Shown here: positions 11,959 to 59,227 of the stretch, piece after piece | How positions within the stretch are numbered: the first letter of the stretch is position 1 | Layout: each line of letters opens with the position of its first letter | From: Octopus sinensis | Taxonomy: Eukaryota | DNA: 64,000 nucleotides | NCBI RefSeq assembly: GCF_006345805.1 | Contig: NC_043008.1 | Location: 62,434,001 to 62,498,000, forward strand | Reading direction: 5' to 3' | Position numbers and translations under genes: made by a program | The notes under the pieces: model-generated | Database searches by the model: none | What the model was told of the DNA's origin: nothing | Seen by the model: only the letters and a program-made list of their open reading frames with translations

Positions 11959-11993
<35 letters not shown>

Positions 11994-12053
11994 TTACATA
12001 AAATTACTATGGATAAATCTCTCAACAAGAGACATTCAGTAAAAGTACTCTAG

Positions 12054-12244
12054 AGTAAAGATTATTTGCCAACATAGCGTAGCAGTCCAAGTTAGGATAA
12101 ATGTTACTGCTATTTATCCCCAGGAAAATATAAGAACACAGACAGTGTGTCGTATAGCCAGCTGGAGATGTTTCCTGGGGCTAAATAGCAGTGACATTTA
12201 TCCTAACCAGGAATGCTATGTTATGTTGGCAAATAATCTTTACT
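12054..12244. repeat. Inverted repeat (about 75-bp arms) from a relative of the 353-bp HHR element
   Basis: agtaaagattatttgccaacat...ccccaggaaa pairs with tttcctgggg...atgttggcaaataatctttact. Confidence 0.85.
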
Positions 12245-12650
12245 ATTTATATATACATACAAATATATATATTATATATAAACTAGAGTATCTTGTATTC
12301 TAAGAATATTCCACATGCACAATCATATAATACTTTGTTTAGAGCTGGGCTAAATATAATGGAGATGATTATAATATTGTCATTTGAATATGTTCAGGCA
12401 TGGCTGTGTGGTTTTGAAGTTTGCTTCTCAATGGCAGGGATTCAATTTCAGTTAACTGTAAAACATCCTGACCTCTAAGACACAGTCCTCATTTATATAT
12501 ATATGATCATGGACATAAAGCTTTTTAAGAGAATAGAAAATCATGATAATTTCAATGTCATGATTAGCAAAACACAAAACCAGTCATCTACCACAATACT
12601 CTATCATTTGAAATATATTAAAACTATGTAAACTGTGTGCAGTTTCTTTC

Positions 12651-38340: not shown

Positions 38341-38422
38341 ATATATAGGGATATTGGGTCTCAATGACACCATTACCTCTCACAATCTATATATATATAT
38401 ATAATATATATATATATATATA

Positions 38423-39154
38423 GTGACGTATTTTTGCCATTTCAATATGGCTAACCCCTAAGGGTGGATGCTACTGTAGTTTTTAGCCCCAGGAGGACAC
38501 ACTCCTCCAGCTGGCCATAGACACACTATCTGTGTCCTGTCAGTATTTGCAAAGGGAAGTCATCCTTCCCGTCTTCAACTTATGATACACACGGACTCGA
38601 GTTTCGAGGTATTGACCTCTCGTCAGCGTGTGACAATCATAGTTGTCGCCGAGAATTAGATTTCCTTCACAAATACTTATACTTTTTCCAGCGCCCACTG
38701 TCGCTGATATTGAAAAAGTGAAATCAAACAATGATAAATATCAAAGTGAGTTATATACAGTAGCGGTAACACATCGTGACGTATTTTTGCCATTTCAATA
38801 TGGCTAACCCCTAAGGGTGGATGCTACTGTAGTTTTTAGCCCCAGGAGGACACACTCCTCCAGCTGGCCATAGACACACTATCTGTGTCCTGTCAGTATT
38901 TGCAAAGGGAAGTCAATACCTCGAAACTCGAGTCCGTGTGTATCATAAGTTGAAGACGGGAAGGATGACTTCCCTTTGCAAATACTGACAGGACACAGAT
39001 AGTGTGTCTATGGCCAGCTGGAGGAGTGTGTCCTCCTGGGGCTAAAAACTACAGTAGCATCCACCCTTAGGGGTTAGCCATATTGAAATGGCAAAAATAC
39101 GTCACGATGTGTTACCGCTACTGTATATAACTCACTTTGATATTTATCATTGTT
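38423..39154 (-). mobile_element. 353-bp HHR unit, 1.4 tandem copies plus an inverted 0.7 copy (retrozyme/PLE-like)
   Basis: gtgacgtatttttgcc at 38423 and 38776; inversion at gtca (38912-38915); copies look identical; inserted in (TA)n. Confidence 0.9.
38588..38632 (-). ncRNA. Canonical type I minimal hammerhead ribozyme
   Basis: cacacg-CTGACGA-gaggt-caat-acctc-GAAAC-tcga-GTC-cgtgtg. Perfect stems I and II, palindromic stem III ACTCGAGT, GUC site. Confidence 0.93.
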
Positions 39155-40894: not shown

Positions 40895-40955
40895 CTCTAT
40901 ATTGAATCAATTTCGGAATTAATTCTTATAAAGGATATATTCTTCTTCAGTAGAG
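40895..40955 (-). ncRNA. Type I hammerhead ribozyme motif (AUA site)
   Basis: ctcta-CTGAAGA-a-gaat...attc-c-GAA-attgattcaat-A-tagag. Confidence 0.65.
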
Positions 40956-58095: not shown

Positions 58096-58382
58096 CCAAG
58101 TAACTCACAAGACAAGGGATTATGTGAGGGGCAGGGCATTTGTGTTAGAGTGTGACAAAGAGACAGAAAGACAGAAGCAGGTGTCTTTCCTCAACAGAGG
58201 AAGTATTAGACTAAGTGATCCAGTCTTAAATGATGAATGGTTAGAGTGTAACAGAGAAATAGAGAGGCAGAAATAGGAGTTGTATGATTTCTTAGGGTAG
58301 AGTGGGTCGAAAGTGTGTGGTTACATGTGAGTGGGACACAACTCTTCTAGCACTCAGTTTCATAGACAGGTATTCTCTAGGA

Positions 58383-58583
58383 CAGTGCTTTTCAAACTTT
58401 TTGCTGGAGCGGAACCCCAAGGAAACATTCCACTGGCTCGAGGAACCCCTGTGCAATAATTTAATTGTCTTATGCACACATATCTGCACAGGAGAATTAA
58501 AAATTACTGCCGATTTTAGCAGTTTTGTAACTTCTTGCGGAACCCCTGGACTGTACTGGCAGAACCCTGGTTGAAAACCACTG
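58383..58583. mobile_element. hAT (Buster/Charlie-type) MITE, 201 bp
   Basis: TIRs cagtgcttttcaa and ttgaaaaccactg; perfect 8-bp TSD ctctagga (NNNTANNN) at 58375-58382 and 58584-58591. Confidence 0.92.
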
Positions 58584-58609
58584 CTCTAGGACCTCATATC
58601 ACCAAATAT

Positions 58610-59015
58610 GTGTAATTCCCTTACGGGACTGTTACATTGAGTTGACAGTATACGACCACTATATCGCTCCACCACCGCTTATGTCTCTCTGAGACATTTA
58701 GAAATTCAATATTCTAATTTCGGTGATCAATAAATAAATTTTACTGATAATATGATATATTTGCGAAGAGGTTGCAGTCATCTCAGCGAGCGAGACAAGC
58801 TACCCTGAACTGACGACGAGCAATAGACTCAGAAACATATGTCTTCAGGTGCTTAGTCCCAGCTGGTGGGGGTGATTGCCTCCTCTTTGCAAATATAAGG
58901 ACACAAAAAATGTGTCAAGGCCGACAGGAGACGTCGATGTTTCCTAGGGCTAAATGGCAGTGGTGTAATTCCCTTACGGGACTGTCACATTGAGTTTACG
59001 GTACACGACCACTGT
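58610..59015 (+). mobile_element. 353-bp HHR unit with about 52-bp terminal direct repeat (retrozyme-like)
   Basis: gtgtaattcccttacgggactg at 58610 and 58963; one HHR inside; ends in (TA)n. Confidence 0.85.
58804..58849 (+). ncRNA. Type I minimal hammerhead ribozyme
   Basis: cctgaa-CTGACGA-c-gag-caataga-ctc-a-GAAAC-atat-GTC-ttcagg; palindromic stem III ACATATGT, GUC site. Confidence 0.88.
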
Positions 59016-59025
59016 ATATATATAT

Positions 59026-59227
59026 GTGACCGTGTGTGTACCGTTGGCGATTTTTTTTCCTCTGTCTTCCCTTCTCTGGATCTTTCCTTCTCCTATGTTT
59101 CCTATGAAGAGCTCCACTCGAAACGTTAAACCCTCCTTCTTTCCTTCTTTCCTGAGCGTCCAATAATACTATATTTGTTCCACGTCCTCGCGTTGTGTTT
59201 TTTTGTGCTTTCTTGTTTGGATTAACT

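What the first reader, a model, noticed from the sequence alone, without database searches (positions are those of the whole stretch)
58610..59015. Second 353-nt retrozyme-like monomer, circularly permuted
Seen: one unit plus about 52 bp of terminal redundancy, with a central HHR (perfect 6-bp stem I, GUC site). The insertion does not begin at the cleavage site. Inference: the template was circular or multimeric RNA. Mismatches between the repeats suggest it is older than the 38.4-kb copy.
Basis: partly seen in the sequence, partly recalled or inferred. Interest (0 to 1): 0.75.

Follow-up and report, generated by a model that had tools for sequence, protein, structure and literature searches.

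The report
Old Penelope-type hammerhead retrozyme insertion
This is a worn 408-base copy (one 353-base unit plus a 55-base overlap) of a dispersed repeat that carries a hammerhead ribozyme motif, likely pasted next to a TA microsatellite by the enzymes of a Penelope-like retrotransposon: an ordinary member of the known animal 'retrozyme' class.

Summary
Window 58610-59017 is 1.16 units of a 353-nt repeat. The ends overlap by 55 nt (50 of 55 identical). One type I hammerhead motif lies at 58804-58849, with the GUC cleavage site at 58843/58844.

It is not the same family as the 38.4-kb copy. The two units are 57% identical relatives of equal length: an old family A (this copy; copies 91-96% alike) and a young family B (99-100% alike, arrays of 10 or more units).

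Mapping 41 family A and 16 family B loci refines 'circularly permuted'. The 3' end is fixed at unit position ~174 or ~220-228, and the 5' end is variably truncated. Many insertions carry an inverted 5'-truncated arm. In such composites one outer end is ~174 and the other carries the ~50-nt 'tail'. Insertions sit in (TA)n microsatellites, and TSDs of 10-14 bp appear elsewhere.

This is the published insertion anatomy of Penelope-like elements, and the element class is the known metazoan non-LTR retrozyme. A template with an intact ribozyme junction (circular or multimeric RNA) is required but not discriminated. The autonomous partner was not identified, and RNA evidence was unobtainable.

With a single ribozyme, this copy is a dead-end relic.

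The parts
58610..59017 (+). Whole insertion: unit positions 120-353 followed by 1-174 of the 353-nt family A unit (1.16 units). The boundaries are ambiguous by 2-4 nt because of microhomology with the flanks.
   Evidence: blastn of the rotated unit against the window and locus L001; direct reading
58610..58664 (+). First copy of the 55-nt terminal redundancy (unit 120-174)
58963..59017 (+). Second copy of the terminal redundancy (unit 120-174). It ends at the family's common 3' end ...CCACT(G)TATAT, which abuts a short (AT) run.
   Evidence: 21 of 41 family loci share this 3' end
58804..58849 (+). Type I hammerhead motif: stem I 58804-58809 / 58844-58849, core CTGACGA 58810-58816, helix II 58817-58831 (C.A mismatch then 3 bp), GAAA 58832-58835, helix III 58835-58842 (2 bp plus the palindromic loop ATAT), C17 58843. 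Predicted cleavage is between 58843 and 58844.
   Evidence: sequence; descriptor against shuffles; compensatory stem I and helix II changes against family B; no Rfam match
58606..58612 (.). Possible 7-bp target-site duplication ATATGTG, left copy. It overlaps 3 nt that also match the unit, so it is weak evidence on its own.
   Evidence: L001 row; direct reading
59022..59028 (.). Possible 7-bp target-site duplication ATATGTG, right copy, just after the short (AT) run at the 3' end
38420..39154 (-). Related young family B insertion (context, not part of this finding). It is a composite of a minus-strand arm (unit 32-353 then 1-174) and an inverted plus-strand arm (328-353 then 1-220). The outer ends are at 174 and 220, and both lie in (TA)n.
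   Evidence: (L081)

Best explanation
Window 58610-59017 is a decayed 1.16-unit copy, with a single hammerhead motif, of a dispersed 353-nt repeat family; it was likely made by target-primed reverse transcription of a multimeric or circular ribozyme-bearing RNA, probably by the reverse transcriptase and endonuclease of a Penelope-like element (PLE).

Shown:
- The family has at least hundreds of copies on many chromosomes.
- Copies share a fixed 3' end on the hammerhead-sense strand, at unit ~174 or, with a ~50-nt 'tail', at ~220-228. Their 5' ends are variably truncated.
- Copies run across the ribozyme cleavage junction, up to 1.7 units in this family and 10 or more units in the young sister family.
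- Many copies carry an inverted 5'-truncated arm. TSDs enclose the whole composite, so it arose in one event.
- Insertions are strongly enriched in (TA)n microsatellites.
- The genome holds thousands of candidate PLE endonuclease matches. These include a ~98% identical family with an intact 781-aa RT + C-terminal GIY-YIG frame that also sits in (TA)n.

Inferred:
- A nick in (TA)n gives a 3' end that anneals by 1-5 nt of microhomology to ...UAUAU at unit 170-174 of the sense RNA.
- cDNA synthesis then runs past the uncleaved or religated GUC junction and stops at unit 120 in this copy.
- The other end is joined with a short TSD.
- The hammerhead's role is upstream of this: cutting multimeric transcripts of multi-unit copies into unit-length RNA that a ligase circularises, as published for animal retrozymes.

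This copy has only one cleavage site, so it could be cut once but could not release a unit-length RNA. It is a dead-end relic.
For: Anatomy of 41 unique family A loci (28 chosen by whole-unit match, 13 chosen by the ribozyme region; mapped):
- Main-arm 3' ends lie at unit 166-175 in 21 loci, at 218-231 in 19, and 1 is irregular. 5' ends are scattered over the unit, and total lengths run from 251 to 758 nt.
- 17 of 41 carry an inverted arm on the 5' side. In 14 of these 17, one outer end is ~174 and the other ~228. Three are irregular, and none has the same end type at both sides.
- Exact non-low-complexity TSDs of 8 nt or more occur in 6 of 41 loci (10-14 nt). The control, re-pairing flanks between loci, gave a mean of 0.17 and a maximum of 2 in 200 trials. 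Five of the six TSDs enclose composite inverted-plus-direct insertions.
- (TA)4 or longer lies within ~20 nt of an end in 24 of 41 family A and 16 of 16 family B loci, against 8.4% of random positions.

Family B obeys the same rules (ends at 174 and 217-220; 8 of 9 composites have unlike ends). It is 99-100% identical between copies.

These features match the passages of Craig et al. 2021 (PMC8557442) on PLE insertions: 5' truncation, partial tandems, an inverted 5'-truncated copy at the 5' end, a 30-40-bp tail at one end only, and a (TA)n bias.

Ribozyme and RNA:
- Motif against chance.
- Stem I differs on both strands between the families yet stays paired (CCUGAA/UUCAGG against CACACG/CGUGUG), and helix II likewise. 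22 of 93 consensus pairs carry compensatory changes.
- Both unit RNAs fold far better than shuffles (z -6.3 and -7.4).

Resident PLEs:
- 5029 first-look GIY-YIG candidates; 149 of 150 scored pass.
- Its copies end in ...ACAAATAT(AT)n and lie in (TA)n.

Literature: Cervera and de la Pena 2020 (PMC7229834, passages) and Li, Clavereau and Pollet 2026 (preprint 10.64898/2026.07.22.740005: abstract, section 14 and passages) define the class and name PLEs as the likely mobilisers.
Against: - No autonomous partner was found. The two units show no sequence similarity to the 781-aa PLE family (local alignment scores no better than shuffles) or to 12 GIY-YIG loci with 1.5-kb flanks. That PLE family has no CTGANGA...GAAA motif at all.
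- Rfam does not recognise this family's hammerhead, even in the sub-family with a paired 10.1/11.1.
- This copy, and 10 of the 14 fully intact motifs among 33 copies, have a C.A mismatch at the base of helix II. Self-cleavage is therefore untested and may be weak.
- The terminal repeats within copies are hardly more alike than different copies are (0.911 against 0.903; this copy 0.909 against 0.910). Identity of the two repeats at insertion is therefore assumed, not shown.
- The compensatory changes rest on a single split between family A and family B (two B rows).
- Both locus samples were chosen by similarity to this copy, which favours long copies that include the junction.
Confidence: 0.8

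Rival explanations
1. The family is a SINE-like passenger of an ordinary LINE (apurinic-type endonuclease). The inverted arms arise by twin priming, and no PLE is involved.
For: Variable TSDs, 5' truncation and 5' inversions are also hallmarks of LINE target-primed reverse transcription (recalled knowledge of L1 twin priming). Cervera and de la Pena 2020 leave LINEs open as mobilisers. No PLE with matching sequence was found.
Against: - Copies flanked by TSDs outside microsatellites have no poly(A) or simple-repeat tail of their own (L002, L009, L028, L067, L070).
- The outer end of the inverted arm is not at random internal positions, as it is in twin priming. It lies at the same two defined sites, with unlike ends in 14 of 17 (family A) and 8 of 9 (family B) composites.
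- The one-sided ~50-nt tail and the (TA)n bias are described for PLEs.
- A resident intact PLE family uses the same (TA)n targets.
Confidence: 0.1
2. The stretch is merely the terminal repeat (pLTR or tail end) of a heavily 5'-truncated autonomous PLE, not a separate non-autonomous element.
For: Truncated PLE insertions look like this, and earlier notes of this scan reached that verdict for look-alike cases in other genomes (e1-7908855; unchecked lead). One family B locus has a PLE endonuclease fragment 340 nt away (L092).
Against: - Longer copies continue into the next unit, not into coding sequence: up to 1.7 units in family A and 10 or more in family B.
- tblastn with two PLE proteins against 80 retrozyme loci plus the window found hits in only 2 loci. 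Neither hit was contiguous with a unit.
- The L092 fragment lies downstream of the copy, beyond the (AT)n, so the unit is not its 3' tail.
Confidence: 0.05
3. The copies spread at the DNA level, as satellite fragments or extrachromosomal circular DNA reinserted at breaks in fragile (TA)n tracts, without an RNA intermediate.
For: Family B has tandem arrays, the copies are permuted, and they sit in (TA)n tracts that are prone to breakage.
Against: Random opening of a DNA circle would scatter both ends. Here one end is fixed and its polarity always follows the ribozyme-sense strand (41 of 41 family A and 16 of 16 family B main arms). TSDs of 10-14 bp enclose whole composites. Copies are dispersed over many chromosomes at similar divergence.
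Confidence: 0.04

Closest known systems
Metazoan non-LTR retrozymes (Cervera and de la Pena 2020, NAR, PMC7229834; passages read)
   Same: - Unit of 353 nt, within their 150-450 nt range (their mussel repeats are ~350-390 bp)
- One type I hammerhead motif per unit
- GC 42.8%, below 50%
- No LTRs
- TSDs longer than 4 bp
- Strongly self-paired unit RNA
- Coexistence with PLEs in the genome
   Different: This copy is a solo 1.16-mer, not a dimer or array. Its hammerhead is not recognised by Rfam and has a C.A mismatch at the base of helix II. The paper reports a U.U mismatch there for one axolotl family. Expression and circularity are not shown here.
Penelope-like element insertion structure: pLTR partial tandems, inverted 5'-truncated copies and a one-sided tail (Craig et al. 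2021, MBE, PMC8557442; passages read)
   Same: 5' truncation, partial tandem, an inverted 5'-truncated arm at the 5' side, an extension present at only one end, and a (TA)n target bias are all seen in families A and B.
   Different: The element encodes nothing and is only 353 nt long. The tail is ~46-54 nt, against the 30-40 bp described. No sequence is shared with the PLE families examined. In the paper the (TA)n bias is stated for Naiad elements, whereas the resident PLE examined here has a C-terminal endonuclease.
Retrozymes as non-autonomous PLE derivatives (Li, Clavereau and Pollet 2026, bioRxiv 10.64898/2026.07.22.740005; abstract, section 14 and passages read)
   Same: The conclusion is the same: animal retrozymes depend on PLEs. 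Solo 'monomer' copies are dispersed, while multimers are fewer.
   Different: Their evidence is co-occurrence and pLTR sequence similarity in Xenopus. Here sequence similarity to a PLE was not found, and the link rests on insertion anatomy. The passages I read do not describe that anatomy.
Amphibian satellite hammerheads with a short helix III that act as dimers (as summarised in PMC7229834)
   Same: Helix III is 2 bp closed by a palindromic tetraloop (ACAUAUGU here, ACUCGAGU in family B). In a multimeric transcript this could pair between two ribozymes.
   Different: Dimer-dependent cleavage is not tested here. The paper says invertebrate retrozyme hammerheads usually have a 2-bp stem with a tetraloop and cleave efficiently as single motifs.
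Plant LTR retrozymes (Cervera et al. 2016, PMC4918200; search listing only)
   Same: Both are non-autonomous retroelements with a hammerhead and a proposed circular RNA intermediate.
   Different: As summarised in PMC7229834, the plant elements have type III hammerheads inside LTRs, a PBS and PPT, 4-bp TSDs, a ~700-nt size and GC above 55%. None of these apply here.

Membership tests
Type I hammerhead ribozyme (Rfam RF00163 and the textbook core) | Conserved core CUGANGA ... GAAA and a cleavable NUH triplet | tested here: met
   The window copy has CTGACGA at 58810-58816, GAAA at 58832-58835 and GTC at 58841-58843. 21 of 33 family copies keep the core pattern.
Type I hammerhead ribozyme (Rfam RF00163 and the textbook core) | Stem I open-ended and base-paired, helix III closed by a loop (type I topology) | tested here: met
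   Stem I is 6 of 6 pairs (58804-58809 with 58844-58849), and helix III is 2 bp plus a tetraloop. Stem I changes on both strands between families A and B and stays paired. The descriptor gives 0.03 sites per shuffled window.
Type I hammerhead ribozyme (Rfam RF00163 and the textbook core) | Helix II paired from position 10.1/11.1 | tested here: not met
   This copy has C.A at 10.1/11.1 followed by 3 pairs. Of the 14 fully intact motifs among 33 copies, 10 have C.A and 3 have U-A.
Type I hammerhead ribozyme (Rfam RF00163 and the textbook core) | Score at or above the curated Rfam gathering threshold | tested here: not met
   There was no hammerhead match at gathering score, none at E<=10 around this copy, and none in 4 other family A loci. 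Family B reaches 32.2 bits against a threshold of 34.
Type I hammerhead ribozyme (Rfam RF00163 and the textbook core) | Self-cleavage at the predicted site | not testable with these tools
   This needs in vitro transcription or mapping of RNA ends. Only assembled contigs of runs guessed to be RNA were available.
Metazoan non-LTR retrozyme | Unit of 150-450 bp with low GC, carrying a type I hammerhead and no LTR | tested here: met
   The unit is 353 nt with GC 42.8% and carries a hammerhead motif. Copy ends are not LTR-like. PBS and PPT were not searched for.
Metazoan non-LTR retrozyme | Head-to-tail tandem copies (dimers to multimers), so that two ribozymes flank a unit | tested here: inconclusive
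   This copy is 1.16 units with one ribozyme. Family A reaches 1.7 units with two ribozymes in some loci (L014, L019, L026). Family B has arrays of 10 or more units.
Metazoan non-LTR retrozyme | Expressed as unit-length linear and circular RNA | not testable with these tools
   No listed run is on record as RNA, and only contigs were available.
Metazoan non-LTR retrozyme | Highly self-paired unit RNA | tested here: met
   MFE -125 kcal/mol, z -6.26 against 100 shuffles. The sister family gives -126.6 kcal/mol, z -7.36.
PLE-type insertion (non-autonomous PLE derivative) | 5' truncation with a common 3' end, and partial tandem | tested here: met
   40 of 41 main arms end at one of two sites, and 5' ends are scattered. 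This copy spans unit 120-353 plus 1-174.
PLE-type insertion (non-autonomous PLE derivative) | Inverted 5'-truncated copy at the 5' side, and a tail at one end only | tested here: met
   At family level, 17 of 41 loci are composites and 14 of those 17 have one ~174 end and one ~228 end. In family B the figure is 8 of 9. This copy has neither an inverted arm nor a tail.
PLE-type insertion (non-autonomous PLE derivative) | Microsatellite, (TA)n, target bias | tested here: met
   24 of 41 (family A) and 16 of 16 (family B) loci against 8.4% of random positions. This copy abuts a short (AT) run at 59016-59025.
PLE-type insertion (non-autonomous PLE derivative) | Sequence shared with the terminus or pLTR of a resident autonomous PLE | tested here: not met
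   There is no similarity to the 781-aa PLE family or to 12 GIY-YIG loci. Only a small part of the 5029 candidate PLE loci was examined.

The most novel reading that the evidence does not exclude
The two retrozyme families of this genome record a strict rule of Penelope-type integration. Every insertion is primed at one of two defined sites on the sense RNA (unit ~174 and ~220-228, about 50 nt apart). When both target strands prime, they always use different sites. This produces the one-sided 'tail' and the inverted arm that have been unexplained features of PLE insertions. With near-identical young copies (family B) at thousands of first-look candidate sites, this would give a base-resolution natural data set for working out the PLE integration mechanism. 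It would also give direct anatomical proof that animal retrozymes ride on PLE enzymes.
Probability: 0.3. Interest if true: 0.6.

Novelty: new member of a known kind. Interest (0 to 1): 0.35.

Why it matters
In itself this copy is an ordinary, dead repeat insertion.

Its family context is more useful. The genome holds an old and a very young 353-nt hammerhead family whose insertions show, at single-base resolution, the signature of Penelope-like integration: a fixed 3' start site, a one-sided ~50-nt tail, an inverted arm, (TA)n targets and TSDs.

The published case that animal retrozymes depend on PLEs rests on co-occurrence and sequence similarity, in the passages I read. Insertion anatomy is an independent line of evidence.

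The young family would be a good substrate for testing how PLE enzymes prime and resolve insertions, and whether the template is a circle.

Tried and rejected
- Rfam: no hammerhead match for family A at any threshold tried. I therefore relied on a descriptor with shuffle controls and on compensatory changes.
- RNA evidence: no RNA holder is listed. Four runs guessed to be RNA, kept only as assembled contigs, were laid on 58500-59120 at 88% likeness. Contigs of family members cover the unit, and one contig in each of two runs 'goes back 353'. Contigs cannot show RNA ends, strand or circularity, and genomic copies hold the same junction, so nothing follows. The second read-laying run was not used.
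- Partner search: 12 GIY-YIG loci and five 8-kb PLE loci were compared with both units by blastn and local alignment. They were also scanned for hammerhead motifs. This gave only three weak motif matches (L034, L043, L044) and no sequence similarity. A 290-nt direct repeat flanking one PLE (L043) looks like two copies of an unrelated abundant short repeat, not a pLTR.
- Circle versus inherited multimer: I compared the identity of the redundant parts within copies with the identity between copies. It is uninformative (0.911 against 0.903).
- Earlier notes of this scan: none for this genome or this sequence. A word search gave look-alike cases in other genomes, used only as leads.
- Helitron-like or MITE-like readings were considered and dropped. 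The ends are not inverted repeats of each other, the 5' ends vary, and TSD lengths vary.

Full report
**Observation**

The stretch is as described. The repeat finder and blastn give a 55-nt direct repeat, 58610-58664 and 58963-59017, spaced 353 nt apart. It is 50 of 55 columns identical, with four substitutions and one indel.

Between the repeats, on the + strand, lies a complete type I hammerhead motif:
- stem I, CCUGAA (58804-58809) pairing 6 of 6 with UUCAGG (58844-58849)
- core CUGACGA (58810-58816)
- helix II, CGAG-CAAUAGA-CUCA (58817-58831)
- GAAA (58832-58835)
- a 2-bp helix III closed by the palindromic loop AUAU
- GUC, with cleavage predicted between 58843 and 58844

A descriptor requiring core, three helices and the cleavage triplet finds three sites in the window: this one, the 38.6-kb one, and a doubtful AT-rich one at 40950 on the minus strand. 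In 200 dinucleotide-preserving shuffles the mean was 0.03 per window (6 of 200 with one site, 0 of 200 with two).

Against this, Rfam finds nothing here at gathering score or at E<=10. The same holds for four other loci of the family. The 38.6-kb copy scores 32.2 bits on Hammerhead_1, just under the threshold of 34. Helix II of this copy opens with a C.A mismatch.

**Two families, not one**

The unit here (family A) and the 38.4-kb unit (family B) are both exactly 353 nt with GC 42.8%. They are only 57% identical in a global alignment (218 of 385 columns; score 66 against -67 +/- 13 for shuffles). They share blocks outside the ribozyme and the same position of the 3' end.

A consensus fold of 13 family A copies and 2 family B copies has 93 pairs, 22 of them with changes on both sides that keep the pair. 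These include all of hammerhead stem I (CCUGAA/UUCAGG against CACACG/CGUGUG) and part of helix II. This rests on one A-versus-B split, so each pair counts as about one event. Both unit RNAs fold much better than shuffles (z -6.3 and -7.4).

In the window's own 2.72-Gb genome, family A gave 2980 first-look candidates, of which 40 were scored; near-full copies are 91-96% identical to this one and lie on many chromosomes. Family B gave 1471 candidates, of which 40 were scored; many copies are 99-100% identical and arrays reach at least ten units.

The 38.4-kb copy's redundant parts are 140 of 140 identical, against 50 of 55 here.

**Mapping the ends**

I numbered the unit from the first base after the cleavage site. 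I mapped 41 unique family A loci. Of these, 28 came from a whole-unit search, after dropping L007 and L021 as paralogous duplicates of L004 and L020. The other 13 came from a search with the ribozyme region.

The samples favour copies that resemble the query, so the fact that all cross the 353/1 junction is partly by selection. The ends, however, are not selected:
- On the ribozyme-sense strand the 3' end lies at unit 166-175 (...CGACCACTATAT) in 21 loci, at 218-231 (...TTCTAAT) in 19, and is irregular in 1.
- 5' ends are scattered over the whole unit, and total lengths run from 251 to 758 nt.
- Seventeen loci carry an inverted, 5'-truncated arm on the 5' side. In 14 of these one outer end is of the ~174 type and the other of the ~228 type. 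Three are irregular (L024, L026, L052), and none has the same type at both ends.
- Exact, non-low-complexity TSDs of 8 nt or more occur in 6 of 41 loci (10-14 nt). The control, re-pairing flanks between loci, gave a mean of 0.17. Five of the six enclose composite inverted-plus-direct insertions, so these arose in one event.
- (TA)4 or longer lies within ~20 nt of an end in 24 of 41 family A and 16 of 16 family B loci, against 8.4% of random positions.
- TSD-flanked copies outside microsatellites carry no (TA)n of their own, so (TA)n is the target, not a tail.

Family B follows the same rules, with ends at 174 and 217-220 and 8 of 9 composites having unlike ends. The window's own 38.4-kb copy is one of these.

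The copy under study is the simplest form: unit 120-353 followed by 1-174. It ends at the common site against a short (AT) run and has a possible 7-bp TSD, ATATGTG (58606-58612 and 59022-59028). That TSD is weak evidence on its own.

**What this anatomy is**

A fixed 3' end with variable 5' truncation, always in the polarity of the ribozyme-sense strand, is the mark of target-primed reverse transcription of that RNA.

Partial tandems, an inverted 5'-truncated copy at the 5' end, an extension present at one end only and a (TA)n bias are the features listed for Penelope-like elements by Craig et al. 2021 (PMC8557442, passages).

The element class is the metazoan non-LTR retrozyme of Cervera and de la Pena 2020 (PMC7229834, passages): units of 150-450 bp, low GC, type I hammerheads, TSDs longer than 4 bp, self-paired circular RNAs, and PLEs named as a strong candidate mobiliser. 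A 2026 preprint argues from co-occurrence and pLTR similarity that retrozymes are non-autonomous PLE derivatives (10.64898/2026.07.22.740005). The passages I read there do not describe insertion anatomy. I did not read the whole texts, and its supplements are closed.

**Resident PLEs**

A GIY-YIG search of the genome gave 5029 first-look candidates. Of 150 scored, 149 passed, with open frames up to 883 aa.

[quoted passage not shown] Its copies are ~98% identical over 3.4 kb. It ends in ...ACAAATAT(AT)n and lies in (TA)n. Active or recently active PLEs with the same target preference are therefore present.

I found no sequence shared between either unit and this family or 12 other GIY-YIG loci. 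This PLE family also has no hammerhead core motif. The partner is therefore not identified.

The unit is not simply the tail of a longer PLE. Longer copies run into the next unit. tblastn with two PLE proteins against 80 retrozyme loci and the window hit only two loci, and neither hit was contiguous with a unit.

**Mechanism, and what is inferred**

Shown: the anatomy above, the motif, the fold, and the presence of PLEs.

Inferred:
- A nick in (TA)n primes cDNA synthesis by a few bases of microhomology at ...UAUAU (unit 170-174) of the sense RNA.
- Synthesis passes the GUC junction, which must therefore have been uncleaved (multimeric transcript) or religated (circle).
- Synthesis stops at a variable point, unit 120 here.

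Circular and multimeric templates cannot be separated from DNA. The redundant parts within copies are no more alike than different copies are (0.911 against 0.903; this copy 0.909 against 0.910).

The palindromic helix III loops (ACAUAUGU, ACUCGAGU) would allow paired ribozymes in multimers, as described for amphibian repeats. This is untested.

With one cleavage site, this copy cannot release a unit-length RNA. It is a relic.

Of 33 family A ribozyme regions, 21 keep the core and 14 keep the whole motif. Ten of those 14 have the C.A mismatch and three have U-A.

**Verdict**

The finding is a new member of a known kind. Interest is modest for this copy. It is somewhat higher for the family-level rule of two start sites and unlike ends, which may help explain the tail and inverted arm of PLE insertions.

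Noticed in passing
window 38420-39154; loci L079-L098: Family B, the 38.4-kb copy's family, is very young. Dozens of scored copies are 99-100% identical across chromosomes. Arrays reach at least 10 units (own-genome contig C11432, 24277-27963). Tandem-plus-inverted composites are frequent, and 16 of 16 loci lie in (TA)n. Its hammerhead nearly reaches the Rfam threshold (32.2 against 34 bits).
   Followed up: partly
window about 11980-12260 (match at 12126-12193): A third element is related to both units: 74% identical to family A unit 48-119 and 79% to family B unit 56-112. It is flanked by (TA)n on both sides, has long internal self-complementarity and shows no hammerhead core motif. It may be a ribozyme-less relative or a fragment.
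   Followed up: partly
L045:1954-5979 (own genome C1, about 207.475-207.479 Mb), also L043, L046-L048: A Penelope-like element family of ~4 kb has an intact 781-aa RT + C-terminal GIY-YIG frame. Copies are ~98% identical and inserted in (TA)n, with the 3' end ...ACAAATAT(AT)n. The element has no CTGANGA...GAAA motif, and the three copies examined show no obvious pLTR.
   Followed up: partly
family B loci, terminal ends: Inside arrays the unit reads ...GTCACGATG..., but at 9 of 12 outer ends it reads ...GTCACTAT(AT)n. The last bases therefore probably come from the (TA)n target or primer rather than from the template. This fits priming by microhomology.
   Followed up: partly
L013, L029, L030, L052 (5' or 3' flanks): Some apparently simple family A copies carry a very short inverted piece (about 20-30 nt) of the tail hairpin region (unit ~192-228) at the opposite end. 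Inverted arms may therefore be more common than the 17 of 41 counted.
   Followed up: no
window 59025-59210: This stretch is part of a very abundant short repeat. Summed contig word depth reaches about 1,000,000 in run X3, far above the retrozyme. It was not identified.
   Followed up: no
window about 58370-58596: An element with imperfect inverted ends (CTAGGACAGTGCTTTTCAA ... TTGAAAACCACTGCTCTAG) lies directly upstream of the insertion and looks like a MITE. Part of it (58500-58583) is also very abundant in the laid runs.
   Followed up: no
window 40900-40950, minus strand: An AT-rich sequence meets my hammerhead descriptor, but it has a long, poorly paired helix II and no Rfam support. It is probably chance.
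   Followed up: no
L092:2240-2635: A fragment of a different PLE family lies 340 nt downstream of a family B insertion, beyond the (AT)n. Its endonuclease region is 51% identical in amino acids to the 781-aa family. One such neighbour among about 57 loci is near the chance expectation.
   Followed up: partly
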